A DNA stretch of 45,420 nt from an uncultured Mycoplasmatota bacterium (GCA_947296775.1 CAMYRF010000001.1:1-45420); one strand, 5' to 3'; counted from the stretch's first letter, positions 17,725 through 45,326 are shown. Program-made: numbers and translations. Notes: generated by a model not told the origin, from the letters alone.

Positions 17725-19194
17725 TTATTCTCCTTGCTCTTTTAAGTTTTTCTCTAACTCTTGCTCGTTATCGACCTTCTCCGTCGTTTGCTCCTTAACG
17801 TTCTTCTCCAACTGTTCCTCACTGTCTTTATAAACCTGTTGTGGATCAGGGAATAAATCAACAGTTTTAATTGCATGACGCATATTTATTCCAGCACTTT
17901 GTAAATTCATAAGTGCTTGTGTCTTGTTTAACAAATTACTTATTTTGTTTCTATTAAACTTAATATCTATATCAGCTAAACATAAGTTGCTAATGTTGTT
18001 ATCTTTTGAACGTTCAATAATGTTTTTTATTACCAAAAGCATCTGACGTTCACTGTCTCCAAATAATGTTTCTGCTGACTGAGCATTCTCCTCAGCTAAC
18101 TGCCAGCCTGATTCTCCCAACATTAACGCAACTCCAGTATTTCCACCTGATGACTGTCCTCTTGCTGGTGTACCAGTAATCTGCAGAACTTGCATATACA
18201 GATAATCCGCAAGTGTTTGTACTTCAGTTTGATTTAATTCAGTTTTAATGTACTGCAGTATTGGTGTGTTCCCATCACGTGATTTAGTAGCAATACCGCC
18301 TTCTTGACGCAGTTCAGCAAACTGTTCTGAATCAATTTCAATGTTGTTAAACCACAACAACGACTGAATAAACTGTGCCAACCCGTTCATTCTGTCTGAG
18401 GTGCATAAATTTATAGCTTCCAGTAAATCTAATACACGTTCAAAGCATCCCATTCTAGAAACATCGTTTTTATATTCGATTATTGGAATAGCCCCAATCC
18501 CGTTTATGAATTCTTTCAGCTCTCCTTCAGGTGTAAATATGTTTCCATATCTGCCTATTGTTTCATATACATGATTGGGAGTGTATATCGTGTAATGAGT
18601 AAGATTGTCATTATCAGTCCAGTAGCTAACACCAGCCATAGGTTCCTGAAATACATCTGCACTATAGATAACAAATGTATTCTTTGGGTCTAAATTAGTG
18701 ATTCGAAAATCACTAACACCCCTTTTAACCTTATATGGTGTAACCATTCGATAGCCTACACCGCAAATAGCAAACGTTCTAGCAAGTTCCTGATCTTTGT
18801 AATATTTCCCTTCTTCAAAAAGCATTTCATTTAGCGTATCTACAACCTCATCACCTTCTGATTCAGTATTAGATATATCTTTATTGGCACGCTGAACATA
18901 ACTTATTGGTTGTCCAAAAACATATCCAACTTTGAAATTAACAATTTCATGTGCGTGATTTTCTACAATCTTATTATTTATTTCAGGTCTTACATCCTTT
19001 ACCCGATAGAGAATGTTTTGATTGCCTTTTTCATATTCAAACAATCGCCTTATCTGCCCTCTGTTCCACTGATGTACGCTCATTGCTTTAGCCAAAACAT
19101 CATGGATATTTGCTTTGGTTATTTCATTTACATCTGTGGTGATGATTTTTCTACCGTTAAACTGATTTACTGCTAATTCTCCTATAGTGTTCAT
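17725..19194 (-). CDS. Portal protein (SPP1 Gp6-like)
   Basis: 489 aa, downstream of terL, with an acidic C-terminus. Confidence 0.8.
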   Translation of the reverse strand: MNTIGELAVNQFNGRKIITTDVNEITKANIHDVLAKAMSVHQWNRGQIRRLFEYEKGNQNILYRVKDVRPEINNKIVENHAHEIVNFKVGYVFGQPISYVQRANKDISNTESEGDEVVDTLNEMLFEEGKYYKDQELARTFAICGVGYRMVTPYKVKRGVSDFRITNLDPKNTFVIYSADVFQEPMAGVSYWTDNDNLTHYTIYTPNHVYETIGRYGNIFTPEGELKEFINGIGAIPIIEYKNDVSRMGCFERVLDLLEAINLCTSDRMNGLAQFIQSLLWFNNIEIDSEQFAELRQEGGIATKSRDGNTPILQYIKTELNQTEVQTLADYLYMQVLQITGTPARGQSSGGNTGVALMLGESGWQLAEENAQSAETLFGDSERQMLLVIKNIIERSKDNNISNLCLADIDIKFNRNKISNLLNKTQALMNLQSAGINMRHAIKTVDLFPDPQQVYKDSEEQLEKNVKEQTTEKVDNEQELEKNLKEQGE

Positions 19195-19210
19195 TTATCC
19201 ACCTCCTAAC

Positions 19211-19254
19211 AAAAAAAGCCGACTGCTACGTTTCATACACGTAACAAATCGGCT
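19211..19254 (-). terminator. Hairpin plus T7 between the small ORF and the portal gene
   Basis: Minus strand AGCCGA...TCGGCT with inner ACGT pairings, followed by TTTTTTT. Confidence 0.5.
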
Positions 19255-19406
19255 CAAGGCTCTACTTTATTTAAATTAATCTTTACTGCTTTTTTATCTT
19301 CCTTACACCATAGATATACTGTTCCTTTAGAACCTTCTTCTACAGCACCTAAAAGTTTCTTTTTACCCCTTTTAGCACATTCGGGGCAATATATATATTT
19401 TTTCAT
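19254..19406 (-). CDS. 50-aa small protein with a CPEC...WC motif (below the ORF-track cutoff)
   Basis: ATG 7 nt after AAAGGGG. Translated by hand: MKKYIYCPECAKRGKKKLLGAVEEGSKGTVYLWCKEDKKAVKINLNKVEP. Confidence 0.45.
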   Translation of the reverse strand: MKKYIYCPECAKRGKKKLLGAVEEGSKGTVYLWCKEDKKAVKINLNKVEP

Positions 19407-19459
19407 TCATATACCCCTTTTCTAATAATAGCGTACATACAGAAAACTTTGTTGTCAAG

Positions 19460-21100
19460 CTATATCCCTAAATTTTTTCTGCTAAAAGTCGTAATTGTTT
19501 TAAATCTTCCGCTTTCTCTAACCTCAGCAAGCATAGCCATACTATCAGGTGCATCATCGTTTTTATTTTTTCCTATTATTTTAAATGCATAAATATTATT
19601 CATGAACAACTGATACTCTTTGCTTCTGTGCCCGCTATCTAAATAATAAAATTCTCTAATCTCAGGCGCACGTTCAAATATACGTGCTTCTTTTCGCTTG
19701 TTGGTAGGTGCTGGCTTACTGGTTATCGTACATTTATAATCACGACGTTTTAACTCATTTTCTACCCATTCAGCATATTCACTACCTCCATTGTTAGCTT
19801 CAAACTGAACATATTTAACTTCATTTTTAATAATACAATCTACAATCAGTGGTCTTGTAATAGTTTTATCACCATTATTAAATACTACATCTGGAATAAA
19901 ATCGCCATTCTCTGTTTCTATACATACTGGTGCACTTACATAATCTCCACCACCCCATGCTACGTCAACTGTCATATATTTTCTTACAGATTCATCAGTA
20001 ATAACCCCATTGTAAAAATTCATTGTATCTGGTGTAAATAATGCCCCATCACGTTCAATCGGTTCTCCCATATACTGTGCTAACCACGAAGCCATATCAT
20101 TATTACGCTCAAACTGTGCTCTTAACTGTTTATAGTAGTCTGTATTGAAACCTACATTGTAATCATAATTAAAATTAGATTCATCATTTTCATTAAGTGC
20201 TGGTAAATTTATTATTTTGTATCTTACTTTCTTACCTTCTTCATCGTTTTGTAAAAAGTCCATTCTTAAACCAGCGGGATCGATAAGCGACCAGCGTGTA
20301 CCGATCCATATTTTTTTTGCAGTCTGTTTAGCACGTGGAATCAGGTTGTTAGAAACCTTGGACCATGCACCTATCATACGATCCTTGTTCAACGCTTCTT
20401 CAATACCGCCGATTAAATCGTCTGATATTAAATACCCCTTACAGTCACAAGCCCCGTTCAATGTTCCATACAATGAACGACAAGTCAATGTTGGGTAACG
20501 TTTTTTACGGTTTATATCGATTGTTTCCTTTTTAGCATCAGTATTAGCAATACCTGAATTATTAAATATTTTTTTCCAGTTGTATGTATAGCTGTCTGTC
20601 ATTACCTCCAATACACCAGTATACATAGCCGATGTAATCGTATCTGAAAATGCACTATATAAATTTGTGGCTTCACCATCACGCCCCATTATCCATGTGA
20701 TAAACAGCATCAATATTGTAGTTTTACCCGTCCTAGGGGGTTGAGATACAAATAATTCGTCTAATTCATCATCTGCCAGTGCTTGGAGTTGCTCGGTTAT
20801 AGCTTTTAACACTTTCCTTCGTGGCTGGTAAAATCTTTCCTCAGGTGGTCTATCAATTTCTAGATAAATTAAATAATCTTCAAAACAGTATGGTGCTCTC
20901 AATAATAAAACTTTTCTGTAAAGTTCATACCATTCCTCACCTTGTTTAACATTTTTTATTACTGCCTTTTTTACAAGCCCACTGGCTTTTTTTATACTTT
21001 GTTCACTTGTTTCTAGTCTACATAACTCAAAACAACTGTTTACTATCTCATAATTATTTCCTTTTTTATTTAACGCATTTGCTATTTTATCTACATACAT
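19460..21100 (-). CDS. terL: Terminase large subunit
   Basis: Walker A SQPPRTGKTT; 546 aa; lies upstream of the portal gene. Confidence 0.9.
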   Translation of the reverse strand: MYVDKIANALNKKGNNYEIVNSCFELCRLETSEQSIKKASGLVKKAVIKNVKQGEEWYELYRKVLLLRAPYCFEDYLIYLEIDRPPEERFYQPRRKVLKAITEQLQALADDELDELFVSQPPRTGKTTILMLFITWIMGRDGEATNLYSAFSDTITSAMYTGVLEVMTDSYTYNWKKIFNNSGIANTDAKKETIDINRKKRYPTLTCRSLYGTLNGACDCKGYLISDDLIGGIEEALNKDRMIGAWSKVSNNLIPRAKQTAKKIWIGTRWSLIDPAGLRMDFLQNDEEGKKVRYKIINLPALNENDESNFNYDYNVGFNTDYYKQLRAQFERNNDMASWLAQYMGEPIERDGALFTPDTMNFYNGVITDESVRKYMTVDVAWGGGDYVSAPVCIETENGDFIPDVVFNNGDKTITRPLIVDCIIKNEVKYVQFEANNGGSEYAEWVENELKRRDYKCTITSKPAPTNKRKEARIFERAPEIREFYYLDSGHRSKEYQLFMNNIYAFKIIGKNKNDDAPDSMAMLAEVRESGRFKTITTFSRKNLGI

Positions 21101-21143
21101 TATAAAAGCCCCTTTCCTTTCGGCTCAGGGCTCTAAATTTATT

Positions 21144-21830
21144 CTAAATCATTTTATGTGTGTTTTCAATACATAGTATTGTCTGCTCTATAAACAATTT
21201 GCCTTCATTGGTCCATTTTAACCAGTTGTGCTTTATTTTTACATAACCCCTATTTTTATATCTTCTATAAAGATGCCATCTTCCTTTACGAGAATACTGT
21301 ATCTTTTGGTTTTGTAAAACTTTATTTAATGCTTTAGCACTCATGTTATGCTCTTTGGCAATTTCCTCAGTAGACCATAAACGGTTTACTTTGTTTTCCT
21401 TGCATTCCAGTTTAAATTTAAGCTGGTTATTTTCTAAAATTAACTGCTGGTTATATTTAACTTCATCTACTAATCTTTCTAATGCTTCAAGATAATTATT
21501 AGGTAAAGCTGGTGTTTTTATTGCCTTTTCCATTTCCTCGAAACGATTAACGTATTGTGCAGTAAATATAATCCCCTTTTCACCAGTAAGTTTGTTAGCT
21601 ACCATTTCACAACCTTTCTTGGTTAAAAGATAGCATTTTAAAGTACGTCCAGTACTGTCCTCATACTCACTTGGTATGAAGAATTCTACTGAACGCAATT
21701 TTGCGTTGAGTAAAATACCCTCATACTTACGCACTTTTTTTAATAAATCACAATGTTTCATATCTATCATCCTAGCAACTTCTCTACTGTCGATCGTTTC
21801 AATATGATTAGCAATAATTAATTTACTCAT
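21144..21830 (-). CDS. Rha-family regulator fused to a KilAC antirepressor-type C-terminal domain
   Basis: IETIDSREVARMIDMKHCDLLKKVRKY is Rha-like. The C-terminus NNYLEALERL...SAKALNKVL...GYV is KilAC-like. Start reassigned to MSKLI. Confidence 0.65.
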   Translation of the reverse strand: MSKLIIANHIETIDSREVARMIDMKHCDLLKKVRKYEGILLNAKLRSVEFFIPSEYEDSTGRTLKCYLLTKKGCEMVANKLTGEKGIIFTAQYVNRFEEMEKAIKTPALPNNYLEALERLVDEVKYNQQLILENNQLKFKLECKENKVNRLWSTEEIAKEHNMSAKALNKVLQNQKIQYSRKGRWHLYRRYKNRGYVKIKHNWLKWTNEGKLFIEQTILCIENTHKMI

Positions 21831-21972
21831 GGCTACCACACTCCTTTTCACTATTACTATCAAAATCACGTACATAACGACATTGAGTATAATCAAAAAC
21901 CTTTTTTAAAGAAGTGTCACTCATTTCATTTAAAAGTTTATTTATATAAATTATATACTTTTCTCTATCCAT
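21823..21972 (-). CDS. 49-aa small protein (paralogue family with 21968-22093 and 41326-41445)
   Basis: Hand-translated: MDREKYIIYINKLLNEMSDTSLKKVFDYTQCRY... Start and stop overlaps with both neighbours. Confidence 0.4.
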   Translation of the reverse strand: MDREKYIIYINKLLNEMSDTSLKKVFDYTQCRYVRDFDSNSEKECGSHE

Positions 21973-22093
21973 GGCTAGCCACCTCATATGAACGATATTT
22001 TACTGCTTCTAAATATTTTACAACAAGCATTAAAGCTCTCTTGTCATTAATATCTTTTAAAATCGATGCGATATATTCTTTTTCTTCTTCCAT
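21968..22093 (-). CDS. 41-aa small protein
   Basis: AGAGGT RBS. Sequence MEEEKEYIASILKDINDKRALMLVVKYLEAVKY... Confidence 0.4.
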
Positions 22094-22215
22094 TTTTATT
22101 TACCTCTTTCGTTTAAAATTTAAGATAGAGGCTTATAAATTATTTATAATTATGCTATAATATATAAGCCTCGTAGTGGGCAATAGAACGTGAAACTTTC
22201 TCAGGGTAAAACGTT

Positions 22216-22392
22216 CTATTTTTTTATATCGTCTTTTAATTTTTTTATTCCTAATCGGATTGCTTCTGCTCTCGATACATTCTCTTGTTCGATGTATTTT
22301 TCCAATATCGATGAACACTCATTATCTAATCTAATATGAATAGGTTTTCCTTTAGGATTATTTGTAGGACGACCAATTTTTTTATCTGTCAT
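22216..22392 (-). CDS. Ribbon-helix-helix (CopG/Arc-like) DNA-binding protein, 58 aa
   Basis: AAAGGAGG RBS. MTDKKIGRPTNNPKGKPIHIRLDNECSSILEKYIEQENVSRAEAIRLGIKKL has the classic RHH pattern. Replaces track ORF 22133-22318. Confidence 0.7.
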   Translation of the reverse strand: MTDKKIGRPTNNPKGKPIHIRLDNECSSILEKYIEQENVSRAEAIRLGIKKLKDDIKK

Positions 22393-22424
22393 AAATCCTC
22401 CTTTCTTTTTTGTAGCCCATAATC

Positions 22425-22453
22425 ATTTTATCTTATGTAGCCCAAAAAGTCAA
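22425..22453 (-). promoter_or_regulatory. Promoter of the RHH gene, with flanking GGGCTACA direct repeats
   Basis: TTGACT-17 nt-TAAAAT. GGGCTACA occurs twice, on either side of the -10 element. Confidence 0.55.
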
Positions 22454-22472
22454 GCGTTTTTAAATAAATATT

Positions 22473-22510
22473 AAAAAAAACCCTTACTTAAATAAGTTTG
22501 GGTTTTTGTT
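22473..22510. terminator. Bidirectional terminator
   Basis: A8-CCC...loop...GGGTTTTT. Confidence 0.55.
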
Positions 22511-22781
22511 ACTTTTCGTACCATCGATTTCCGCAATCCATACAGAACCATTCTTCACTTACTTTTTTTCTTGCACCAGTCGCAAATAAAGATAAACCGC
22601 CAGTCATTAAAGCACCAGCAACCTTCCCCTTTGAAACAACTTTCTTTTGCTTCTTCTTTGTTTTAGTGACTGTTAATGGGTGAAGCGGATTTAAGTTTAA
22701 TGATGTTTTATAACCAGCTGGGGCATCATCAATTAAACATATATGTGTACTTTTACATTTAGGACATTTCATTTTTGCCAT
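22509..22781 (-). CDS. Zinc-ribbon protein (CPKC...CMDC) with a basic linker and a Gly-rich segment
   Basis: AAAGGAGG RBS; two CxxC pairs. Confidence 0.6.
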   Translation of the reverse strand: MAKMKCPKCKSTHICLIDDAPAGYKTSLNLNPLHPLTVTKTKKKQKKVVSKGKVAGALMTGGLSLFATGARKKVSEEWFCMDCGNRWYEK

Positions 22782-22797
22782 ATTTCTTTCCTCCTTT

Positions 22798-23023
22798 ACC
22801 TAAATACATCTTATGTTGTTATTAAACTCTGCTTGTGAAGTATCAATCTTGAAAACCGCCTTTATTTCAATACATCATATGTTGGTATTAAACTTAAAGT
22901 TAAATCAGCAAAACTTTGTGCCAATTCCATTTCAATACATCATATGTTGGTACTAAACAGTAAGAAAGCTGGAGAAAAAGCTAAAAAGAACTTATTTCAA
23001 TACATTATATGTTGATATTAATA
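22798..23023 (-). CRISPR. Cas-less mini-CRISPR array: 4 repeats of 30 nt and 3 spacers (36, 35, 35 nt)
   Basis: Repeats at 22798, 22864, 22929 and 22994. Minus-strand consensus is GTTTAATACCAACATATGATGTATTGAAAT. The region is non-coding. Confidence 0.8.
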
Positions 23024-23034
23024 GCTAATTAACA

Positions 23035-23901
23035 TCAATCGTTAGTTGTCGGCTCCTTTATTATTACTTTAACAGTGTTACTTTTTATTTCTTCTTTAGT
23101 AATCTTTGAAATAGCATAAAATTGTATTTCTGTTTCGCCAGCTTTAAGTGCTTTTAATGAATTCTCATCAGGATTGAACTCTATAAATTCTTTATCACAC
23201 TTAATTTTTAAATCGTAATTTTCAATATCATCTATTGGGTCAAAATCTATATCACCACCAAATGTATCGCCCACAGTTACATTTATGCAGTTGATATCAC
23301 TAGTATATTCGATTTTAGGTTTAGAATCTGTTTTTTCTTTCTGATTAGCTTTTATGAAGAACATATCACAATAACTATTTAATTTTTCTACTGTAGTTAA
23401 ACCGATACCACTAATAAAATCTAAAAAATAAAGAAAATTTGGCGCATCAGTACAAAAACTGTTTTTATTATCAGGATCTTGCAACGGACTATAAACAAGT
23501 ATCATATCATTTTCATCTATCGTTTCTGGAAGTGGATTAATAAAATTTTTCCTATAGCTACTACTTTCTAAATCATCTGCTGGTATTTTATAATCAGCAT
23601 CATAGAATCGGCAAGTAACCACACGGGGTTCCGTTACATCAGGCATGAATTGTACTTTAATTCCCTTTTCCCATGTTGTTGTATCTTGACTATCTGTTCC
23701 ATCATATAAAACCATATAATCAGGATATTTTTTATCATCACCATCATCATCAATAATATAAGAAAAATTATATCCTTTTTCTTTGGCTTTTTTAGTTACT
23801 TTTTCATAAAAATCCCAATCATGTTTATCTTTCTTCCCCCCGCACCCTACTACACCTACACATAATAATAAAACCAATATCCCTTTAATTATTTTTTTCA
23901 T
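23035..23901 (-). CDS. Lipoprotein with a C-terminal Big_2-like domain
   Basis: Signal peptide plus lipobox LLLCVGVVGC. Start reassigned to MKKIIKG. Confidence 0.7.
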   Translation of the reverse strand: MKKIIKGILVLLLCVGVVGCGGKKDKHDWDFYEKVTKKAKEKGYNFSYIIDDDGDDKKYPDYMVLYDGTDSQDTTTWEKGIKVQFMPDVTEPRVVTCRFYDADYKIPADDLESSSYRKNFINPLPETIDENDMILVYSPLQDPDNKNSFCTDAPNFLYFLDFISGIGLTTVEKLNSYCDMFFIKANQKEKTDSKPKIEYTSDINCINVTVGDTFGGDIDFDPIDDIENYDLKIKCDKEFIEFNPDENSLKALKAGETEIQFYAISKITKEEIKSNTVKVIIKEPTTND

Positions 23902-24232
23902 TCTCAATGCTCTCCTCTTCCTTTTTTGACACAACAGCTCTTAACAGTTCGTTATTGTCGCTTTGAAGCTGGATAAGTTCTCCAAATCCATATACCAGCC
24001 CGCTTGTAGCAGTAACAGCCATTAATGTTCCGAAAAATTTGGATGCATTAAATTTTGTAACTGTTTCAAAGCTTTCTTCCTCTTCTTCATACCACAGACT
24101 ATCACTTTCCTTTAATACCAGTTCATCTTCCTCAGCCATACCTATACTGCCGATTATACCAAGGGCTAAAAAAACCAAGCTACCGATTTTTAAAATTTTT
24201 GCAATTCTGCAGTTTTTAATTTCTTTTTCCAT
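23885..24232 (-). CDS. Two-TM membrane protein with an acidic loop
   Basis: GGGAGG RBS; two hydrophobic helices. Confidence 0.6.
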   Translation of the reverse strand: MEKEIKNCRIAKILKIGSLVFLALGIIGSIGMAEEDELVLKESDSLWYEEEEESFETVTKFNASKFFGTLMAVTATSGLVYGFGELIQLQSDNNELLRAVVSKKEEESIENEKNN

Positions 24233-24261
24233 AATATTCCTCCCTAAATATAGCTACTATA

Positions 24262-24290
24262 ATTATACCTTATTAAACATAATTTTACAA
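24262..24290 (-). promoter_or_regulatory. Promoter of the membrane protein / lipoprotein / CRISPR / Zn-ribbon unit
   Basis: TTGTAA-17 nt-TATAAT. Confidence 0.55.
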
Positions 24291-24333
24291 TATTTACCAT
24301 TACTGCTTAACAAAAAGGCACTATCTCAGCGCC

Positions 24334-24711
24334 TTACAATGCATATTCTACTTTTTCTTTATCAAACTGCTCTAATTTAGATATAATTTCTAGATATTTA
24401 TCTTCATATAAGTTTTTAAAATCACAAATAACTCCGCCTATTTCTTTTCTGTTAATTGTAACTTGTTTATGAGTTCTAATATAACTTATTTTATTTAAAT
24501 TACAGTCAGGATAATCTATGGGATTTATTTTTATATCATAGTCCTGATTCCTGCGTCTTTTATCAGAAATCGTAGATATTGGAAGTACAATATAATCATT
24601 GTCTAATACCCCATATCCAGCTATAACTAAACCAGGTCTAGATTTAAACTTCATAGCAGAACTTCTCGTATCATAAAATGGAGTAATTATTTTTCCTATC
24701 AAATTTAACAC
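24334..24711 (-). CDS. PemK/MazF-fold toxin-like protein
   Basis: KSRPGLVI...YIVLPISTIS...SYIRTHKQVTINRKEI fits the MazF/PemK pattern. Overlaps the upstream gene by 7 nt. Confidence 0.6.
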   Translation of the reverse strand: MLNLIGKIITPFYDTRSSAMKFKSRPGLVIAGYGVLDNDYIVLPISTISDKRRRNQDYDIKINPIDYPDCNLNKISYIRTHKQVTINRKEIGGVICDFKNLYEDKYLEIISKLEQFDKEKVEYAL

Positions 24712-25193
24712 TCCACATCATCAAATTCATCATAATACATATCCCATACTGCATCATATGGTCTAACTTTTCTTGCATCTATGGCAATATCCTCTATTTT
24801 CATTTCTTTATCTCCTGGATATCCTTCTGGTATTCCTATTCTACTATTTTTCCATGAATACTCCTCATGAGATAAATTTCTTAAATACCAGGAATCGTAA
24901 TAGCCATACTGTTCAAAAACATTCCTTACAATATAAGCCTCTTGCTGATCTAATTTTTTTGTTAGACAAACAATCCCATGTTCTTTATCATATCTTTTTC
25001 TTACTTCAGTAGAAACAGGACCATGTACCCATCCCTCAAAACTCTCATTAAACATAGGTTTTGAAGTTAATGCTATACTCTCACGTTGAATAAAATACAA
25101 TAGTTTCTGTAGTTTTAATTCATCTATTTTATCTCCAGTTTTTTCCTGATAATATTCATATAAATATTGAGCAACTGATAAAATACTAGTCAT
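24705..25193 (-). CDS. Panacea/DUF4065 (SocA/GepA-like) antitoxin-domain protein
   Basis: LKLQKLLYFIQ...GWVHGPV...RKRY are DUF4065 hallmarks. Confidence 0.65.
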   Translation of the reverse strand: MTSILSVAQYLYEYYQEKTGDKIDELKLQKLLYFIQRESIALTSKPMFNESFEGWVHGPVSTEVRKRYDKEHGIVCLTKKLDQQEAYIVRNVFEQYGYYDSWYLRNLSHEEYSWKNSRIGIPEGYPGDKEMKIEDIAIDARKVRPYDAVWDMYYDEFDDVEC

Positions 25194-25323
25194 GTTTCAC
25201 ACCCCCTTCTAAACATCTTTACTATAACACATTATTTATAATTTGTATAATGCTTTAATTATATTTTTAAAAGTGGTTTAATAGCATAATTTTCTAAATC
25301 TTTTTTTTACGTTTTGCACATCA

Positions 25324-25893
25324 TTAACCCCTAACATAATTATAATACGTTCTTTTACCAATACCTATTTTTTGGCATGCTTCAGTTACCTTACTACCGT
25401 TATTTACCATTCTAATTACTTCATCAACTTTATCCTTAACATCTGGTCTACCAAACTTTACCCCTCTTTTCCTAGCTGATTCAATCCCTTCACGTTGTCT
25501 TTCCAGCATTGTAAGTCTTTCTTGTTCAGCTACAGAACTCAATACCTCCAGTATTATATTGTTTATCATTTCAATAACCCATTCCTGACCATCCAGTTTA
25601 ATCATCGTTGTGGGCATGTTCATAATTCTTAATATAACTCCCTTTTCCTTGAAATAGTTAAATTCAGTTGCAATATCCCTCTTGCTTCTTGACAGCCTAT
25701 CCAGTGCATGAATATAAATCTCATCACCAGCTACTGCTATTTCTTTTAGCTTCTGATAATTTATTCTATCAGTACTCTTACCGCTCACCTTATCACAGAA
25801 TATATTTTCAGTTTTTACATATTTGTTTAAACTGTCAATCTGTCTGTCCAGCTTTTGTTCTCTGGTAGATACACGAGCATAACCGTAAATCAT
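25324..25893 (-). CDS. Small serine recombinase (resolvase/invertase family)
   Basis: MIYGYARVSTREQKLDRQ catalytic-Ser motif; C-terminal HTH. Confidence 0.9.
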   Translation of the reverse strand: MIYGYARVSTREQKLDRQIDSLNKYVKTENIFCDKVSGKSTDRINYQKLKEIAVAGDEIYIHALDRLSRSKRDIATEFNYFKEKGVILRIMNMPTTMIKLDGQEWVIEMINNIILEVLSSVAEQERLTMLERQREGIESARKRGVKFGRPDVKDKVDEVIRMVNNGSKVTEACQKIGIGKRTYYNYVRG

Positions 25894-25895
25894 AT

Positions 25896-26138
25896 CTATT
25901 CCTCCTCATCATTCAGAATAACCGATCTAGCTACCTTATTACTACCAGTTTTAGGTCTTAACACTATCTCATAACCTAATGCATCCATCATTTTGATTAG
26001 ATTATTAGCTTTAGGATTATTTGAGCTTAATACTGTACTTAAACTTGTTGATCTTGCATATCCCATTCTCTCGCTTAACTCTACCTGAGTTAGGTTTTCT
26101 TGTTTTAGAATCTTTTTTACTGCTTGTTTTATTTTCAT
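25896..26138 (-). CDS. XRE-type HTH protein
   Basis: LTQVELSERMGYARSTSLSTVL is an HTH motif. Lies 2 nt upstream of the recombinase gene. Confidence 0.7.
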   Translation of the reverse strand: MKIKQAVKKILKQENLTQVELSERMGYARSTSLSTVLSSNNPKANNLIKMMDALGYEIVLRPKTGSNKVARSVILNDEEE

Positions 26139-26156
26139 TTATATCACCTCAAATAC

Positions 26157-26185
26157 ATTTTACTTATATATACGTTAAATGTCAA
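26157..26185 (-). promoter_or_regulatory. Promoter of the HTH-recombinase operon
   Basis: TTGACA-17 nt-TAAAAT. Confidence 0.55.
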
Positions 26186-26239
26186 TGACCTTTTTAATTT
26201 TGCGGGTGGAAAAGGACCTTAGATATACTAATATAACAC

Positions 26240-26260
26240 AAAAAAACACCCCTAGGGGTG
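26240..26260 (-). terminator. Perfect 14-bp palindrome followed by T7 on the minus strand
   Basis: CACCCCTAGGGGTG with an adjacent A7 on the plus strand. Confidence 0.5.
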
Positions 26261-26316
26261 CATAAAGGCGGTATTTTATGCACAATTAAATTATACTCAT
26301 AAATAAGTAATAAGTA

Positions 26317-26345
26317 TTGTTTTATCACTCGTTTACAAGTATAAT
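26317..26345 (+). promoter_or_regulatory. Promoter of the plus-strand small-gene cluster
   Basis: TTGTTT-17 nt-TATAAT. Confidence 0.5.
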
Positions 26346-26403
26346 AATAGTGTGGTAAGTAAATTACTTATTCACAAGTATTTAGTAAAGGAGGTGATAA
26401 ACA

Positions 26404-26506
26404 ATGACAATAAAAAAAAAAAGTAGAGCTATATAAAGAGTGGTGCAACACTCTAGGACTTAAACCACAACATGGTAGTAACCTAATAGCCTACTTCAAA
26501 CGCTAA
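26404..26506 (+). pseudogene. Small gene frameshifted at an A11 tract; paralogue of 26577-26717
   Basis: Begins AGGAGGTG-ATG ACA ATA then A11. The +1 frame gives VELYKEWCNTLGLKPQHGSNLIAYFKR, which resembles IYFIWCKQKGYKPSRYLHKF in the next gene. Confidence 0.5.
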
Positions 26507-26576
26507 TATGTAGGGGCTTATATAGCCCTTACATAGATAGTATATCACAAACACTTAAATATATAAAGGGGGTGAT

Positions 26577-26717
26577 ATGATGCGATTGAGTGATAAAAGA
26601 AACTTTGCACTAAGACAAATATATTTTATCTGGTGCAAACAAAAAGGCTATAAACCAAGTCGTTATTTACACAAGTTTATAACCTTAACCAAAGAGCGTT
26701 ATAATATAACGTTCTAA
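26577..26717 (+). CDS. 46-aa small protein (WC..G.KP motif)
   Basis: AAGGGGGTG RBS. Hand-translated: MMRLSDKRNFALRQIYFIWCKQKGYKPSRYLHKFITLTKERYNITF. Confidence 0.5.
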   Translation: MMRLSDKRNFALRQIYFIWCKQKGYKPSRYLHKFITLTKERYNITF

Positions 26718-26770
26718 ATATATAGGGTGTTAGCGCACCCTATATATAATATAGCATAAAGGAGAAAAAA

Positions 26771-27004
26771 ATGGAAGAATTAAGAATAAAAGCATTTAAA
26801 ATCATTGATAAAAATTTTGAAGAACTATTAAAGGCTAAACAGAATGGAGATATTTGGAAAGTCCATCATCTAAGAGATAAAATTTATAATCAAATCTGTT
26901 TACTACTAGATTTAGGATTATTAAAGTGTATCGAATGGAATTTTATTTATAACGCTATAATGCACGTTTGGAACGGAAAGGAGGTGGCTTTATGTTTTGG
27001 TTAA
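26771..27004 (+). CDS. Hypothetical 77-aa protein
   Basis: AAGGAGA RBS; ORF from the track. Confidence 0.55.
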   Translation: MEELRIKAFKIIDKNFEELLKAKQNGDIWKVHHLRDKIYNQICLLLDLGLLKCIEWNFIYNAIMHVWNGKEVALCFG

Positions 27005-27096
27005 TAAAAGTAATGTTTAATCTTATATTTAATATATTTTTTCTAGCTCCAATTACATTTATTAAAGTATTTGGGGTATGTTCTAAAAGAAGATAG
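26992..27096 (+). CDS. 34-aa hydrophobic peptide with a basic C-terminus (type I toxin-like)
   Basis: GGAGGTGG RBS 5 nt before the ATG. Sequence MFWLIKVMFNLIFNIFFLAPITFIKVFGVCSKRR. A terminator follows immediately. Confidence 0.45.
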   Translation: MFWLIKVMFNLIFNIFFLAPITFIKVFGVCSKRR

Positions 27097-27117
27097 CTTA
27101 ACGGCTATCTTTTTTTA
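27090..27117 (+). terminator. Intrinsic terminator
   Basis: AGATAGC-TTAACG-GCTATCT followed by T7. Confidence 0.7.
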
Positions 27118-27123
27118 TATATT

Positions 27124-27146
27124 ACGTCGTATAAGCGACGTTTTTA
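27124..27146 (+). terminator. Second hairpin plus T-run
   Basis: ACGTCG-TATAAG-CGACGT followed by TTTTT. Confidence 0.5.
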
Positions 27147-27418
27147 TTTACCCTATAATTTACCGCAAACAACGCTTATACGTTAAACAAACCGCCATTT
27201 CAGCTATATAGATTTTATACGTCATTTCCAGCCACTACACACAACGTTTAATATTTTCACCAGCAACTACACCCCTAATACTAAAACAGCCCTCACAATA
27301 GCTAAAAATGAATATTTTTTTACCAAAAATATGAAATTAGCAACCATTTTCCAAATGCACTAATTAATTACTAAGCTCAAAATCCCTATTAATGCGATTT
27401 TCGTCAAATTTTAGTCAC

Positions 27419-27440
27419 AAAAAAACGGAGATTACTCCGT
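27419..27440 (-). terminator. Intrinsic terminator overlapping the terS stop codon
   Basis: Minus strand ACGGAG-TAAT-CTCCGT followed by T7. Confidence 0.65.
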
Positions 27441-28112
27441 TTCTACAACATCTGCATCTATAACCTTTAACAGTTCATCAGCTGATTTAGTTTCACCTAA
27501 ATTATTTTCATGTTTTACAACACTTTCTGTCTGATCTTTCATCCCGTAGTAGTTCTTAGCTCTAAAAATATATGCAACTGGGTTCAGTTTACCATTTACC
27601 AGCAAATTAGCGTCAAAATCAGCTAAAAGTTGTCTAATTCTTTTTGCTATATCATAGCGGTCTAATTCCAATTTTACCTCATTTTCACTCCATTTATGAA
27701 AAGTCTGAGTAGTAACTCCTATAGCTAAAGCACATCCCTCAATAGTAGGTTTCAATTGATTTTTATAACAGTCATTGAAATAGAATTCTACCCGCTGAGC
27801 TATTTCTTCATCAGTCTTAGCTGTTGGAACATTCCAGTATTTAAAAGCATGTTCTAACAGTTTGGCATTTATAGGATCACTTATTGACGATAAACTTGGG
27901 GTATTTGAACGTTTACCCCCCCTAGTTTCTTTAGAATTAACTGGTTCAGTAACACTGTTTATTTTAGTCTTGGTTCTGGCAATATCGTTAAGTGTATATA
28001 ATTTGTCAGGGATATCAATATTAAATTTTTCAGCTCTGACTAATAATGCTTCTTTAGTTCTTGGTTTACGCTTTAATTGTTCAGGTGGCAGTTTTTTAGT
28101 CACTGTCATCAC
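27432..28112 (-). CDS. terS: Terminase small subunit
   Basis: VEFYFNDCYKNQLKPTIEGCALAIGVTTQTFHKW...YIFRAKNYYGMKDQ is a typical TerS pattern. Confidence 0.7.
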   Translation of the reverse strand: MMTVTKKLPPEQLKRKPRTKEALLVRAEKFNIDIPDKLYTLNDIARTKTKINSVTEPVNSKETRGGKRSNTPSLSSISDPINAKLLEHAFKYWNVPTAKTDEEIAQRVEFYFNDCYKNQLKPTIEGCALAIGVTTQTFHKWSENEVKLELDRYDIAKRIRQLLADFDANLLVNGKLNPVAYIFRAKNYYGMKDQTESVVKHENNLGETKSADELLKVIDADVVETE

Positions 28113-28255
28113 ATCCTAATAAATTTAATAATTTATCGTAAATCTCATAACAAATAGGTATTCTGGTATTATTTGTTAAGTAAATTTCTGAAATATTAAA
28201 ATATAAGATTTCATTCGTATTAATGCAAATCCCGTCAAATTCTATAAACTTATTC
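28094..28255 (-). CDS. 53-aa hypothetical protein (below the track cutoff)
   Basis: Hand-translated MNKFIEFDGICINTNEILYF... Overlaps both neighbours in coupled fashion. Confidence 0.4.
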
Positions 28256-28256
28256 A

Positions 28257-28454
28257 TTATTTATTCAGCTCCTTCATAAAGAAATTTCTTTTATAAATAT
28301 CGGACACTTCTAATAAATCGCGAAATTCATCACTATCAGCTACAAAAGTTTGTCCATTTTTCATGTGAACAATATATCTATCAAAAGATGCTTGTTCTAC
28401 AAATGCAATGAAATTAATATCTACTATTTTTTTTCCAACTAAACTGTAAAACAT
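28257..28454 (-). CDS. Hypothetical 65-aa protein
   Basis: AAGGAGG RBS. Confidence 0.55.
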   Translation of the reverse strand: MFYSLVGKKIVDINFIAFVEQASFDRYIVHMKNGQTFVADSDEFRDLLEVSDIYKRNFFMKELNK

Positions 28455-28470
28455 ATTTTTTCCTCCTTAA

Positions 28471-28766
28471 GTACGACAGTACGATTGGTACGGATATTTT
28501 TCGGTCTTTTATATATATTTATATTTTATTATTTTATTATTTTTTATTTTATTTATTTTTATTTTAAACCGTACTATCCGTACTAAATAATAAAAAATAT
28601 ATAAAAAAGTAAGTAAAATCAAGGGTTTTGAGAAGGTACGGATATATTGTTTTTAACTGTACCTGAACCGTATTTTAACCGTACCTAATTAACCACTGTA
28701 TCATAAATTCAATAAAAATATGATTTTATGTATAAAAAGTACGGTTCAAGAATACGGATAAAATGA
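28471..28766. repeat. Putative replication origin: GTACGG/CCGTAC iterons flanking an AT-only tract
   Basis: At least 10 copies of the GTACG(G/A) core in both orientations, including GGTACGGATAT at 28487 and 28635. Positions 28509-28566 contain only A and T. Confidence 0.55.
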
Positions 28767-31187
28767 TTATTTAGGTTGTATCCGCACTATACATTTATCG
28801 TTTTTAATCTTCTTGTTTTGGATATCAGGACGATATTTTTCGGCTAAAGAATTAAATGTTCTTTTAAATGCATTTATTGGTTGCGGTTTAAATGGATAAC
28901 CGTTTTCTTCATACCATCGGCAATATTTTCTATATAATTCCCCGTTTGTCATTATCGAAACTTCATTGTAAATAGTGTTATAATCATTATCCATACTTCG
29001 GGATTCGAGAGTCCAGTCGAATCCCTTAACGAAAACAAGTATAGGATTTTGTGTTTCTTTGTATGCTTCAAGTTGTTCTAATTGATCATCAGGTTCAGTA
29101 AAACGTTTTGTATTTTTAATTATTTTATATCCTTCATACACCCAGTTAAAAATACCTGATAAGTTTTCAAGTGTTGATAGTCTTTCTTCGATTGTTTTAT
29201 CCATTAATTTTTCATTTTTCTTGGTAGGATTTTCCTTGAATGAGTATGGAAAGTTAAGAATACACATTCTGCGTGAAAATCCGTCAGTTAAATCACGTGA
29301 TTTTGGCAGTTCGTTACAAGCAAAGAATGTTTTGCAACGTGGCTCAAAGGTTATGTAATCCTTGCCTTTGAAGCAGGCACTTACCTTATCACCAGCAACA
29401 ATCAGTTTGAAAATTGCATCGTTGTTTTCGGTCGAAGATTTAGTGTCCGCCGATATATTAATTAATTTACCAAGCATATTTATCAACTGGAAATCCTGAT
29501 TAAACGATGTTAGTGGGATGTTTGATATATTTTCATCACCAAACACTTTTTGGAGTATGTTTAGATACACTGATTTGCCATTAGCTCCGCTTCCTACTAA
29601 ATAAAGTGCTTTCTGCATAGTGTTTTTTGGAAATAACACATATCCTGAATATTCCTGAAGCAGTTGTGTTTTTTTTGAATCATCGAATAAAGAATCGATA
29701 AAACTATCCCAGTCTTTAGAATGAACTTCTGGTTTATACGGATACGACAGTTCATAGGATAGAAAATCATTCTCACGATGTTCACGTAATATACCCGTTT
29801 CTATTTCAAAAGTACCATTAATGAAATTAATAAGCGGTTTTTCATTAGGAATTTGTTCTGTAGAAGTTTCAGCTTTAATGATGCCTAACACTGAATTTAA
29901 ACGTGAATTTGTTGCAACTCTCGGCATTTCTTTACGAATATAACGTTTAACTGTTTCATCTTTTATTTTTTTCCAGTAATGTCCATTATATTCCATGATA
30001 CCTAAAGATGGATTGTTAATGAATTTGTATTTTTTTAATACAACATCAGCCACTTCATCATCGCTTAATGGTTTTAATGCAGATTTTTTTACTTCTTTAA
30101 GCCATTCCTTTGTTGCGTTAGGAAATATATTTTCTCTGATAATGGTATCAAATACCGCAATAATATCTGTGTTTTTAATAAATCTGCGGTTATTTACTAT
30201 AAAATTTTCAAAATCTTCCTCATTTTTGAATAGCTGGCACATTTTCTTGATACCTTCGCTGGCATTTTCGACTAAATGCGATAAATTACCTCCGTCGCAG
30301 TAATAATCTGATATGTCCTTGTATTTTGATGGGAGATTGCATATTTTAAACGGTATATGACGTGTAAATAACTGTTTAGCCATTTTTAATGTAAATCCTT
30401 TACCTGATGTGTCGTTGTCGAATGTCAGCAGAACACAGTCAAAGTTTTTAGCGATATTAAGCATTTCTTTAGTCTGCTTCTTCGAATATGTACCACCAGC
30501 ATTAGCTATTGTTGCGTATCCTTCCTGATAGAACGATAAATAATCAAAAGCTCCCTCAGCTACAACTAATAATGATTTGTCTCTACTGAGAGTATCCAAT
30601 CCAAATAATGAATTATCGTTGAATTCATCTAAATACGGTTTTTTATATTTAGGATTAGTTTTAGTTACTTCCCCTAACGTTCGACCGCAGTAGTAACATA
30701 CATAGCCATTCTTCCACATCGGTATGATTATACGGTTTTCTTCAAATTTGAACCCTATTTTTAATTTGTTTATAGTTTCATCGTTTATATTACGATTATG
30801 TAAATATTTTCGGTGTTCATCGGTTAAATTCCTATGCCACAGCTCGATTTTATTGCATAAATTCTGCGTATATTCATGCCATTTCTGTGAATATTCACTG
30901 TTTGGAAGTGGTATGCCAGTAAATTCGCTAAGATGTTTGATTGCCTGACCTCTGTCCCCGTCATATGAGTGCAATGCCAATAGATCAATGACATCCCCGC
31001 CCTGAGCGTCTGAAAAACTATACCAGTAATCGTCATTAACGATAACTGAATTAGGATTCGACCCTGAGTGGATAAAACTTGGACACCTATCCCCTGATTT
31101 TTGTATAGGAAGTCCTAATGATGAAGCTATCGCAACGCATGATGTTGCGTTTTTGATAGCCTCAAGGGTTAATTTAAAATCATTCAT
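28767..31187 (-). CDS. Bifunctional primase-helicase (DnaG-like Zn-finger and Toprim fused to a D5/P4-type NTPase)
   Basis: Toprim motifs VVAEGAFD and FDNDTSGKG; Walker A GSGANGKS; 806 aa. Confidence 0.85.
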   Translation of the reverse strand: MNDFKLTLEAIKNATSCVAIASSLGLPIQKSGDRCPSFIHSGSNPNSVIVNDDYWYSFSDAQGGDVIDLLALHSYDGDRGQAIKHLSEFTGIPLPNSEYSQKWHEYTQNLCNKIELWHRNLTDEHRKYLHNRNINDETINKLKIGFKFEENRIIIPMWKNGYVCYYCGRTLGEVTKTNPKYKKPYLDEFNDNSLFGLDTLSRDKSLLVVAEGAFDYLSFYQEGYATIANAGGTYSKKQTKEMLNIAKNFDCVLLTFDNDTSGKGFTLKMAKQLFTRHIPFKICNLPSKYKDISDYYCDGGNLSHLVENASEGIKKMCQLFKNEEDFENFIVNNRRFIKNTDIIAVFDTIIRENIFPNATKEWLKEVKKSALKPLSDDEVADVVLKKYKFINNPSLGIMEYNGHYWKKIKDETVKRYIRKEMPRVATNSRLNSVLGIIKAETSTEQIPNEKPLINFINGTFEIETGILREHRENDFLSYELSYPYKPEVHSKDWDSFIDSLFDDSKKTQLLQEYSGYVLFPKNTMQKALYLVGSGANGKSVYLNILQKVFGDENISNIPLTSFNQDFQLINMLGKLINISADTKSSTENNDAIFKLIVAGDKVSACFKGKDYITFEPRCKTFFACNELPKSRDLTDGFSRRMCILNFPYSFKENPTKKNEKLMDKTIEERLSTLENLSGIFNWVYEGYKIIKNTKRFTEPDDQLEQLEAYKETQNPILVFVKGFDWTLESRSMDNDYNTIYNEVSIMTNGELYRKYCRWYEENGYPFKPQPINAFKRTFNSLAEKYRPDIQNKKIKNDKCIVRIQPK

Positions 31188-39322: not shown

Positions 39323-39383
39323 AAAATAATTTCCTTTCTTTTGTGTTATAATGAGATAAAGTAACAAGAAAGCAGGATCGACT

Positions 39384-40483: not shown

Positions 40484-40506
40484 GTAATGTACTCCTTTCA
40501 TTCTTT

Positions 40507-45131: not shown

Positions 45132-45203
45132 AACAAAAACCTTCTCACAGAATGAGAAGGCTTTGCGCAAATAGGCTCCGTAGAGTATCTATCGCTACAT
45201 CGT
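45132..45203 (-). ncRNA. Roughly 70-nt sRNA unit, gene-proximal copy, ending in an intrinsic terminator
   Basis: Lies downstream of TTGACA-17-TAGAAT. Contains GUAG/CUAC and the palindrome TTTGCGCAAA. Ends with CCTTCTCA-TTCTG-TGAGAAGG-TTTTTGTT, 21 nt before the abi ATG. Confidence 0.6.
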
Positions 45204-45209
45204 ATAATC

Positions 45210-45238
45210 ATTCTATAATTATTTTTCTGTTTTGTCAA
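45210..45238 (-). promoter_or_regulatory. Near-consensus promoter of sRNA copy 1
   Basis: Minus strand TTGACA-17 nt-TAGAAT. Confidence 0.6.
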
Positions 45239-45248
45239 TAACATTAAT

Positions 45249-45320
45249 AACAAAAACCTTCTCACAGAATGAGAAGGCTTTGCGCAAATAGGCTCCGTAG
45301 AGTATCTATCGCTACATCGT
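45249..45320 (-). ncRNA. Second identical sRNA unit
   Basis: 100% identical to 45132-45203. Confidence 0.6.
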
Positions 45321-45326
45321 ATAATC

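What the first reader, a model, noticed from the sequence alone, without database searches (positions are those of the whole stretch)
21144..27431. A 6.3-kb multi-promoter accessory island splits terS from terL
terS (27432-28112) ends in its own terminator, and terL starts only at 21100. Between them lie at least five separate transcription units with recognisable sigma-A promoters and terminators. They are: a plus-strand small-gene cluster with a hydrophobic peptide; an HTH plus serine recombinase pair; a PanA-MazF-like pair; a membrane protein, lipoprotein, mini-CRISPR and Zn-ribbon unit; and an RHH gene followed by two small paralogues and a Rha-KilAC gene. Terminase subunit genes are normally adjacent and co-transcribed. 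This therefore looks like a cargo hotspot or an inserted mobile cassette, since a recombinase is present, packed with defence or competition functions.
Basis: partly seen in the sequence, partly recalled or inferred. Interest (0 to 1): 0.6.

Follow-up and report, generated by a model that had tools for sequence, protein, structure and literature searches.

The report
Swappable accessory-gene bay between terminase genes
The 6.3 kb between this gut phage's two DNA-packaging genes is an old, lineage-wide bay for swappable accessory genes, not a newly inserted mobile element; it is built around a conserved regulator and small recombinase and here holds a toxin-antitoxin pair, a small CRISPR array and an antirepressor unit.

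Summary
terS (27432-28112) and terL (19460-21100) are 6.3 kb apart, and the genes listed lie between them.

The "inserted mobile cassette" reading does not hold. The HTH regulator, the small serine recombinase and the divergent small-gene operon are conserved backbone. In 88 related loci with both terminase genes, 80 have a gap of about 1 kb or more. A same-strand small serine recombinase sits in that gap in 56.

The truly variable DNA is narrower:
- **Main slot, 21154-25320.** It runs from the recombinase stop codon to about 53 nt before terL. Ten close genomes show seven cargo states, including an empty 133-bp site.
- **Minor slot, 26570-26977.**

There are no boundary repeats and no compositional anomaly.

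Cargo here:
- a PanA antitoxin with a toxin whose MazF fold was confirmed;
- a membrane protein and a lipoprotein;
- a mini-array whose repeat matches type I-B CRISPR arrays that target this phage family;
- an RHH gene with a Rha/KilAC antirepressor.

A conserved hairpin that buries the terL ribosome-binding site closes the slot.

This scan has already reported the same layout in at least seven other genomes, and a moron locus between terS and terL is published for phage JBD26. The recombinase's role is unknown.

The parts
27432..28112 (-). terS (small terminase, P22 gp3-like)
   Evidence: Pfam GP3_package 41.7 bits, above the 29.4 cut-off; PHROG 606. The same family lies directly next to terL in eight relatives.
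27419..27445 (-). terS intrinsic terminator overlapping the stop codon
   Evidence: 10-bp stem plus U7, -12.9 kcal/mol, z -2.85.
26404..27146 (+). Divergent plus-strand operon. It holds a structured leader with a 33-aa ORF (frameshifted here), swappable small genes p46 (26577-26717) and p77 (26771-27004), the conserved hydrophobic peptide p42 (26968-27096), and a terminator at 27124-27146.
   Evidence: The relatives' ORF sets keep the ends and vary in the middle. Homology breaks at 26569 and 26978. The leader folds at -51.1 kcal/mol, z -5.1. The terminator was checked by folding.
26139..26403 (.). Conserved divergent control region with five TAAGTA boxes and the TTGACA-17-TAAAAT promoter of the HTH-recombinase operon
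   Evidence: Promoter matches 11 of 12 positions. TAAGTA occurs 5 times against 0.27 expected, the densest cluster in the phage. The region aligns with relatives.
25896..26138 (-). HTH_3 (Xre/Cro-type) regulator, conserved backbone
   Evidence: Pfam HTH_3 5.6e-6. 71-72% identical in all close relatives, and about 30% identical copies occur in distant ones.
25324..25893 (-). Small serine recombinase (resolvase type), conserved backbone
   Evidence: Resolvase domain 2.9e-29. Best PDB matches are Tn3, Sin and gamma-delta resolvases. Present between terS and terL in 56 of 88 loci.
21154..25320 (-). Hypervariable main cargo slot
   Evidence: DNA homology with eight relatives stops at 25320-25336 and resumes at 21136-21156. 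Ten genomes show seven cargo states; the empty site is L016, 133 bp.
24334..25193 (-). PanA antitoxin (24705-25193) and MazF-fold toxin (24334-24711), with terminator at 24315-24335
   Evidence: SocA_Panacea 2.4e-15. AF2 model pLDDT 93; top 45 Foldseek hits are MazF structures, TM-scores mostly 0.6-0.77. The same pair occurs in at least 35 IMG/VR contigs.
23035..24232 (-). Two-TM membrane protein (23885-24232) and lipoprotein (23035-23901)
   Evidence: ORFs; signal peptide and lipobox VVGC read from the sequence. No family hits. Relatives carry other lipoproteins at the same first position of the slot.
22798..23023 (-). cas-less mini-CRISPR array: four repeats and three spacers, with the last repeat degenerate and overlapping the Zn-ribbon RBS
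   Evidence: Repeats. Repeat 4 matches the 590-copy repeat of gut arrays in its first 25 nt; repeats 2-3 differ from it at 2-3 nt. Those arrays adjoin Cas6-Cas7-Cas3-Cas4-Cas1.
22509..22781 (-). Zn-ribbon protein, followed by a terminator at 22467-22516
   Evidence: PHROG 24502 and related families. Hairpin plus U8.
21144..22392 (-). RHH repressor (22216-22392), two small ORFs and a Rha/KilAC antirepressor (21144-21830), under TTGACT-17-TAAAAT
   Evidence: PHROG 876 at 2.5e-13; Phage_pRha 1e-22 and ANT 2.6e-11. Promoter.
21101..21169 (-). terL promoter-like site (21141-21169) and the conserved leader hairpin TTAGAGCCCTGAGCCG...GGGGCUUUU, which buries the terL RBS
   Evidence: Conserved in all relatives. 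Folds at -15.2 kcal/mol, z -3.2. The motif occurs twice in the phage against 0.08 expected.
19460..21100 (-). terL (large terminase)
   Evidence: PHROG 38 at 3.4e-49; T7-type RNaseH-like nuclease domain.

Best explanation
The terS-terL interval of this roughly 45-kb temperate siphophage is an inherited accessory-gene bay with a fixed scaffold and two swap slots.

**Scaffold, shown by comparison with relatives.** In order:
- terS with its own terminator;
- a convergent small operon that starts with a strongly folding, nearly invariant leader holding a 33-aa ORF and ends with a hydrophobic peptide;
- a divergent control region dense in TAAGTA boxes;
- an Xre-type HTH gene and a Sin/Tn3-like small serine recombinase;
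- the cargo slot;
- a conserved hairpin that buries the terL ribosome-binding site;
- terL.

**How it works, inferred.** Cargo units bring their own promoters and terminators, so they can be expressed from the prophage while the late genes stay silent. The hairpin and its U-run in front of terL insulate the packaging genes from read-through. Cargo turns over by ordinary recombination between related phages within the conserved flanks, namely the recombinase 3' end and the terL leader. The recombinase does not appear to do it.

**What this phage's cargo most likely does:**
- The PanA/MazF-fold pair is a toxin-antitoxin or abortive-infection module.
- The membrane protein and lipoprotein give superinfection exclusion.
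- The mini-array feeds the host's type I-B Cas proteins with phage-chosen spacers.
- The RHH gene with Rha/KilAC is a second immunity region of the P22 immI kind.

**The recombinase.** It most likely acts at a site in its own conserved control region, for example to resolve genome multimers. That step is a guess.
For: **Sharp homology breakpoints.** Eight close relatives share them at the recombinase stop codon and about 53 nt upstream of terL.

**Variable content.** Ten genomes show seven cargo states. The empty site in L016 is 133 bp and carries a TTGCAA-17-TATAAT promoter.

**Lineage-wide layout.**
- 80 of 88 loci have a terS-terL gap of about 1 kb or more.
- 56 carry a same-strand small serine recombinase in the gap, and 24 of those end within 174 bp of terL.
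- The minimal form, terS-recombinase-terL, is seen in L113.
- The isolated [Clostridium] innocuum phage Maintenon also has a 2.65-kb gap.

**Recombinase inheritance.** Recombinase divergence tracks TerL divergence about as well as TerS divergence does (Mantel rho 0.32 against 0.31).

**Cargo census.** The intervals hold defence, counter-defence, toxin-antitoxin and antirepressor genes.

**Exchange of cargo.** The PanA/MazF-like module occurs in many unrelated viral contigs, and in the same slot after the recombinase in L179 and L191.

**Insulation.** Terminators flank the units, and the terL leader hairpin is conserved.

**No sign of recent foreign origin.** There is no compositional anomaly.

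**Published precedent.** The tab/atab moron locus lies between terS and terL of Pseudomonas phage JBD26 (PMC10884400).
Against: - Prophage expression of the cargo and insulation by the hairpin are therefore inferred.
- Promoter-like matches are not enriched over shuffled sequence.
- No terminator separates the recombinase from PanA.
- The persistence of a recombinase immediately upstream of terL is not explained by a plain moron-hotspot model.
- The window's own three spacers have no detected target.
- No cas genes or matching arrays were found in the 81%-complete bin or in 200 genomes of its family.
Confidence: 0.75

Rival explanations
1. The recombinase, with a site in the adjacent conserved region, is a dedicated cassette-exchange machine. 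It would work like an integron but use a serine recombinase, and it would capture or swap the cargo.
For: The recombinase is always adjacent to variable DNA, and the left boundary of the slot lies within 4 nt of its stop codon. A divergently transcribed cassette-like operon has a palindromic hairpin after each small gene. Operator-like boxes cluster in the control region.
Against: No shared motif occurs at the five different left junctions, at the right junction or between units. In 24 loci the recombinase abuts terL with no cargo downstream. Gene gains and losses are exactly ORF-sized, as in ordinary phage mosaicism. Resolvase-type enzymes normally act on sites in cis.
Confidence: 0.1
2. The 6.3 kb is a recently inserted mobile cassette that brought its own recombinase.
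For: A recombinase is present, the block has autonomous transcription units, and terminase genes are usually adjacent.
Against: The recombinase, the HTH gene and the divergent operon are 71-85% identical in protein and syntenic in all close relatives. They are present in distant relatives too. There are no flanking repeats. Composition is ordinary: 62% of equal-sized windows deviate at least as much. The empty site still contains the recombinase.
Confidence: 0.04
3. The recombinase is an invertase that flips the divergent promoter region or the plus-strand operon, giving phase-variable expression.
For: PHROG 125 labels the protein a 'DNA invertase'. The neighbouring operon is oppositely oriented, and several weak inverted repeats lie in 26150-26355.
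Against: The nearest solved relatives are resolvases, not Hin or Gin. All nine independent relatives have the same orientation. The inverted repeats are 72-73% matches in AT-rich DNA, among 253 such pairs. Reads could not be examined.
Confidence: 0.06
4. The 226-aa ORF is not the working small terminase, so the 'split' is only apparent.
For: Only residues 101-196 match the family, and there is no PDB sequence match.
Against: The Pfam score is above the curated cut-off. Nothing TerS-like lies next to terL here. The same family sits directly upstream of terL in eight relatives, and upstream of it in 88 loci. Phage Maintenon's homologue is annotated as terS.
Confidence: 0.05

Closest known systems
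[quoted passage not shown]
   Same: Accessory defence genes sit between terS and terL. One has its own promoter on the opposite strand and is expressed from the prophage. The content differs among phages whose terminases are more than 90% identical.
   Different: The JBD26 locus is two small genes in a Mu-like Pseudomonas phage. It has no conserved regulator-recombinase scaffold, no multi-unit bay and no insulating hairpin described.
Hotspots of antiviral systems in P2-like phages and P4-like satellites (Rousset et al. 2022, PMC9122126; cited from the reference list read)
   Same: Fixed positions between conserved core genes where diverse defence genes are exchanged among close relatives.
   Different: The position differs, being the terminase interval. 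Here the cargo mixes defence with counter-defence and antirepressors. A recombinase is part of the scaffold.
Tn3, gamma-delta and Sin resolvases with res sites in their own divergent promoter regions
   Same: The protein is the same size and domain order, has the catalytic YARVS motif and scores E 1e-22 to 4e-25 against these structures. Its gene lies next to a conserved control region with clustered short boxes.
   Different: No transposase and no transposon ends. The gene is embedded in a phage packaging module. A res site was not demonstrated.
PanA-PanT toxin-antitoxin pairs with EndoA/PemK/MazF-like toxins (PMC8832971)
   Same: A Panacea-domain antitoxin lies upstream of, and overlaps, a small MazF-fold toxin. 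Such pairs were validated experimentally, and many are phage-borne.
   Different: This toxin family falls below the Pfam PemK threshold, and its activity is untested.
CRISPR arrays carried by Clostridioides difficile prophages and used with the host type I-B system (PMC4173771, PMC4556805)
   Same: A cas-less array in a temperate Firmicute phage, with the repeat of a host type I-B system.
   Different: It has only three spacers, lies inside the terminase-interval bay within a protein-coding operon, and has no identified targets.
Phage P22 immI region (arc, mnt, ant); from established knowledge
   Same: A small RHH repressor gene lies upstream of an antirepressor, placed in the late region away from the main immunity region.
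   Different: The antirepressor here is of the Rha/KilAC type. Two small ORFs intervene. No function has been tested.

Membership tests
Phage accessory (moron) hotspot | Flanked by core genes that are conserved and syntenic in relatives | tested here: met
   terS, the HTH gene, the recombinase and terL are conserved in all close relatives.
Phage accessory (moron) hotspot | Content differs among close relatives, including an empty site | tested here: met
   Seven cargo states in ten genomes. L016 is empty, with a 133-bp interval.
Phage accessory (moron) hotspot | Units have their own promoters and terminators | tested here: inconclusive
   Terminators are enriched and fold as expected. Promoter matches are no more frequent than in shuffles.
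Phage accessory (moron) hotspot | Cargo is expressed from the prophage | not testable with these tools
Mobile cassette or transposon carried by its recombinase | Terminal or target-site repeats at the boundaries | tested here: not met
   Only AT-rich promoter-like similarity was found.
Mobile cassette or transposon carried by its recombinase | The recombinase travels with the cargo and is absent from empty sites | tested here: not met
   The recombinase is present at the empty site and with every cargo type.
Mobile cassette or transposon carried by its recombinase | Foreign base composition | tested here: not met
   GC is 0.300 against 0.318 +/- 0.016. The tetranucleotide distance is below the mean for equal-sized windows.
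Integron-like cassette platform | A conserved recombination site (attC-like) at each cassette boundary | tested here: not met
   The junction sequences of five cargo types share no motif.
Integron-like cassette platform | An IntI-type tyrosine recombinase | tested here: not met
   The enzyme is a serine recombinase.
Small serine recombinase (resolvase/invertase) | N-terminal catalytic domain with the nucleophilic serine, and a C-terminal HTH | tested here: met
   Resolvase domain 2.9e-29 covering residues 2-145; YARVS motif; weak HTH_7/HTH_23 match at 151-188. Aligns with Tn3 resolvase and Sin.
Small serine recombinase (resolvase/invertase) | A cognate res or hix site | tested here: inconclusive
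   Five TAAGTA boxes cluster in the control region, but they could equally be operators of the HTH_3 protein.
Small terminase (P22 gp3 family) | Profile match above the curated threshold, and linkage to terL | tested here: met
   41.7 bits against a 29.4 cut-off. Directly adjacent to terL in eight relatives.
PanA-PanT toxin-antitoxin | A Panacea-domain protein directly upstream of a small toxin gene | tested here: met
   SocA_Panacea 2.4e-15. The two ORFs overlap by 7 nt. The pair is conserved in at least 35 contigs.
PanA-PanT toxin-antitoxin | Toxin with a recognised toxic fold | tested here: met
   MazF fold with TM-scores mostly 0.6-0.77. The sequence profile alone finds no PDB MazF.
PanA-PanT toxin-antitoxin | Toxicity, and its neutralisation by the antitoxin | not testable with these tools
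   Needs an expression assay.
CRISPR array (orphan, type I-B repeat) | The repeat is shared with cas-adjacent arrays | tested here: met
   36 gut-metagenome contigs carry GTTTAATAACAACATAAGATGTATTGAAAT. In L212 the array adjoins Cas6, Cas7, Cas3, Cas4 and Cas1.
CRISPR array (orphan, type I-B repeat) | Regular unique spacers | tested here: met
   Spacers of 35, 35 and 36 nt with no mutual similarity.
CRISPR array (orphan, type I-B repeat) | Spacers match a target | tested here: not met
   No match in the fetched loci, the bin, INPHARED or IMG/VR.
CRISPR array (orphan, type I-B repeat) | The host supplies Cas proteins | tested here: inconclusive
   No Cas1 and no array in the 81%-complete bin, and none in 200 genomes of its family. 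Arrays with this repeat carry 15 spacers against this phage family.

The most novel reading that the evidence does not exclude
The conserved HTH-plus-small-serine-recombinase unit is not a passenger. It may be functionally tied to the bay, as a site-specific cassette-exchange system that assembles the cargo (integron-like, but with a serine recombinase). Alternatively it may be a third component of the packaging module, given that it sits within 174 bp of terL in 24 loci and forms a terS-recombinase-terL operon in L113.
Probability: 0.1. Interest if true: 0.75.

Novelty: new variant of a known kind. Interest (0 to 1): 0.4.

Why it matters
Accessory-gene hotspots show where to look for new phage-borne defence and counter-defence genes. 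This bay is shared by a large lineage of uncultured gut Clostridia phages. A census of it already turns up ArdA, AcrIC5, Mrr-type nucleases, toxin-antitoxin pairs and many unknown genes, so it is a ready-made discovery site.

The unexplained constant is a resolvase-type recombinase wedged into the packaging operon. My literature searches found no description of such an arrangement, and it is directly testable.

The mini-array adds a case of a phage borrowing its host's type I-B CRISPR repeat while that same host system targets the phage family.

Tried and rejected
- **Near-identical DNA in isolated phages:** none found.
- **Single-protein TerL scan of species genomes:** nothing. A TerL alignment was needed.
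- **Boundary repeats:** only promoter-like AT-rich matches.
- **Rfam on 19000-28800:** no hit.
- **PADLOC on the cargo proteins:** nothing significant.
- **Lipoprotein relatives in IMG/VR:** none.
- **The 33-aa peptide and p42 in distant loci:** not found.
- **Covariation in the leader RNA:** one compensatory pair in 45. The sequences are too similar to test the structure.
- **Exact CRISPR-repeat searches:** nothing in the bin, in 200 genomes of its family, in IMG/VR or in metagenomes. A two-repeat degenerate pattern succeeded.
- **Targets of the window's spacers:** none.
- **MazF profile against PDB sequences:** no hit. The fold search was needed.
- **Integron-like reading:** considered and set aside for lack of shared junction sites.

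Full report
**What the window is.** The 45,420-base window is a whole contig whose two ends overlap by 55 nt, so it assembled as a circle. Its GC content is 31.6%, and it was binned into a 1.13-Mb genome that is 81% complete with GC 28.7%. It encodes a complete temperate siphophage on the minus strand:
- tyrosine integrase at 42533-43639;
- replication genes;
- primase at 28767-31187;
- terS at 27432-28112;
- terL at 19460-21100;
- portal at 17725-19194, followed by head, tail and lysis genes.

**Observation.**
- terS passes the Pfam GP3_package threshold and ends in a 10-bp hairpin plus U7.
- The recombinase has a complete resolvase domain with the YARVS motif. Its closest solved relatives are Tn3, Sin and gamma-delta resolvases rather than Hin or Gin.
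- The MazF-like toxin is below the Pfam threshold. A model built from 15 homologues has pLDDT 93, and its top 45 Foldseek hits are MazF structures, with TM-scores mostly 0.6-0.77.
- Terminators are enriched (10 found, 3.0 expected) and fold as expected after terS, the plus-strand cluster, the toxin gene and the Zn-ribbon gene. None follows the recombinase.
- Promoter-like matches are not enriched.
- The two small ORFs called paralogues show no detectable similarity.

**Relatives define a scaffold and two slots.** Nine IMG/VR contigs have TerL 86-90% and TerS about 80% identical to the window. DNA homology with them runs as follows:
- 28148-26978 is conserved (terS and the hydrophobic peptide gene).
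- 26978-26569 is variable.
- 26569-25320 is conserved (leader, control region, HTH gene and recombinase).
- About 25320 to about 21153 is variable.
- 21153-19463 is conserved (terL with a 45-nt leader).

The left break lies within a few bases of the recombinase stop codon. The right break lies about 53 nt before the terL start.

The main slot has seven states in ten genomes:
- this window's 4.2 kb;
- three different sets of lipoprotein, reverse-strand cI-like repressor, RHH gene and antirepressor;
- a dCTP-deaminase-like set;
- a lone 95-aa HExxH gene;
- an empty 133-bp site with a TTGCAA-17-TATAAT promoter (L016).

No repeats mark the boundaries, and composition is ordinary.

**The layout is lineage-wide.** An alignment-based scan added 80 prophage loci from gut Clostridia genomes, with TerL 33-61% identical.
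- Among 88 loci with both terminase genes, 80 have a gap of about 1 kb or more.
- 56 have a small serine recombinase in the gap, always on the terL strand. In 24 of these it ends within 174 bp of terL.
- L113 shows the minimal operon terS-recombinase-terL.
- Eight loci have terS directly beside terL. This confirms the identity of the TerS family.
- Recombinase divergence tracks TerL divergence as well as TerS divergence does (Mantel rho 0.32 and 0.31).
- The closest isolated phage, Maintenon of [Clostridium] innocuum (TerL 42%), has a 2.65-kb gap with two tRNA genes and no recombinase.

A census of 149 representative proteins from 80 intervals found Mrr-type nucleases, AntA, Bro-N and KilAC antirepressors, ArdA, AcrIC5, a dCTP-deaminase-like protein, LemA, FtsK/SpoIIIE, Panacea, an RnlA toxin domain, Fic/Doc, NYN and RNase H.

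**Scaffold details.**
- The divergent operon begins in relatives with a conserved 33-aa ORF. In the window this ORF is frameshifted by an 11-A run.
- This roughly 120-nt stretch is the best-conserved part of the block, at 86-98% identity against about 75% elsewhere.
- It folds strongly, with z -5.1. There is too little variation to test covariation.
- The 262-nt control region holds five TAAGTA boxes against 0.27 expected. One overlaps the -10 element of the HTH-recombinase promoter.
- The terL leader forms an 8-bp hairpin that includes the ribosome-binding site and is followed by a U-run.
- The leader's 16-nt motif, TTAGAGCCNTGAGCCG, recurs before the portal gene. In relatives it also recurs before the HExxH gene.

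**Cargo.**
- *Toxin-antitoxin pair.* The PanA and MazF-fold pair is a conserved two-gene module in at least 35 viral contigs of other kinds. In L179 and L191 it sits in the same slot, after the recombinase. PanA pairs with MazF-like toxins have been validated experimentally (PMC8832971).
- *Mini-array repeat.* A degenerate two-repeat search found 36 gut-metagenome contigs with arrays of up to 45 repeats. All use GTTTAATAACAACATAAGATGTATTGAAAT. The window's fourth repeat matches this in its first 25 nt, and repeats 2-3 differ from it at 2-3 nt. One such array adjoins Cas6, Cas7, Cas3, Cas4 and Cas1.
- *Those arrays target this phage family.* Fifteen distinct spacers from nine of the arrays match the window's close relatives at 94% identity or more.
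- *A second phage-borne array.* L207 is a related phage fragment that carries an eight-repeat array in its replication region. One of its spacers matches sister phages.
- *Open points.* The window's own spacers have no detected target. The bin has no cas genes and no matching array. The flanks of the Cas-bearing contigs are only 64-72% identical to the bin, so the bin may not be the true host.

**Interpretation.** The best-supported reading is an inherited, insulated accessory bay whose cargo turns over by recombination in the conserved flanks. The recombinase is scaffold, not vehicle, and its role remains open. Resolving multimers at a site in its own control region is my leading guess.

The same layout has already been reported by this scan in at least seven other genomes. 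A moron locus between terS and terL is published for JBD26 (PMC10884400). Two literature searches found no description of the recombinase-anchored version.

Noticed in passing
window 26404-26506 (A-run about 26411-26421): The conserved 33-aa ORF that opens the divergent operon is frameshifted in this phage by an 11-A homopolymer; relatives have A7-G-AA. The reading frame downstream of the shift stays open. This could be an assembly error, a slippage site or a recent mutation. The surrounding 196 nt fold at z -5.1 and are the most conserved DNA of the block.
   Followed up: partly
window 21121-21136 and 19250-19265 (-): The 16-nt motif TTAGAGCCNTGAGCCG occurs twice, against 0.08 expected. Each copy starts a terminator-like hairpin immediately 5' of a late gene's ribosome-binding site (terL and portal). 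In relatives it also precedes the HExxH gene. It may be a recognition element for late-gene antitermination or translational control.
   Followed up: partly
L207:53-539: A related phage fragment (helicase 89% identical to window 34039-35379) carries an eight-repeat CRISPR array with the host repeat in its replication module. One spacer, shared with array L219, matches sister phages at 97-100%.
   Followed up: partly
L199-L234 (e.g. L212:5-9661): Gut-metagenome type I-B loci with the same repeat hold 15 distinct spacers against this phage family, including protospacers in terS. Weaker, partial matches fall in the recombinase gene. The flanks of these contigs are only 64-72% identical to the bin, so the phage contig may be binned with the wrong host.
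   Followed up: partly
L045, L048-L051, L061, L143, L144, L023, L093: In several distant relatives terL matches in two pieces separated by about 0.5-1 kb. This suggests an intron, an intein or an endonuclease insertion in the large terminase gene.
   Followed up: no
window 19254-19406 (-): A 50-aa CxxC...C Zn-ribbon ORF between terL and the portal gene is conserved (83% identical) at the same place in all close relatives.
   Followed up: no
window 1-66 and 45132-45420: The contig ends overlap by 55 nt. A 66-nt core that includes a hairpin is present once at the start, and a 117-nt unit is repeated 2.5 times at the end. This fits a circular assembly, possibly with a repeat collapse or expansion.
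   Followed up: no
window 38528-39367 and 39779-40501 (-): Two further antirepressor-like genes (PHROG 63 and 463) lie in the early region, so the Rha/KilAC gene in the bay is a third such gene.
   Followed up: no
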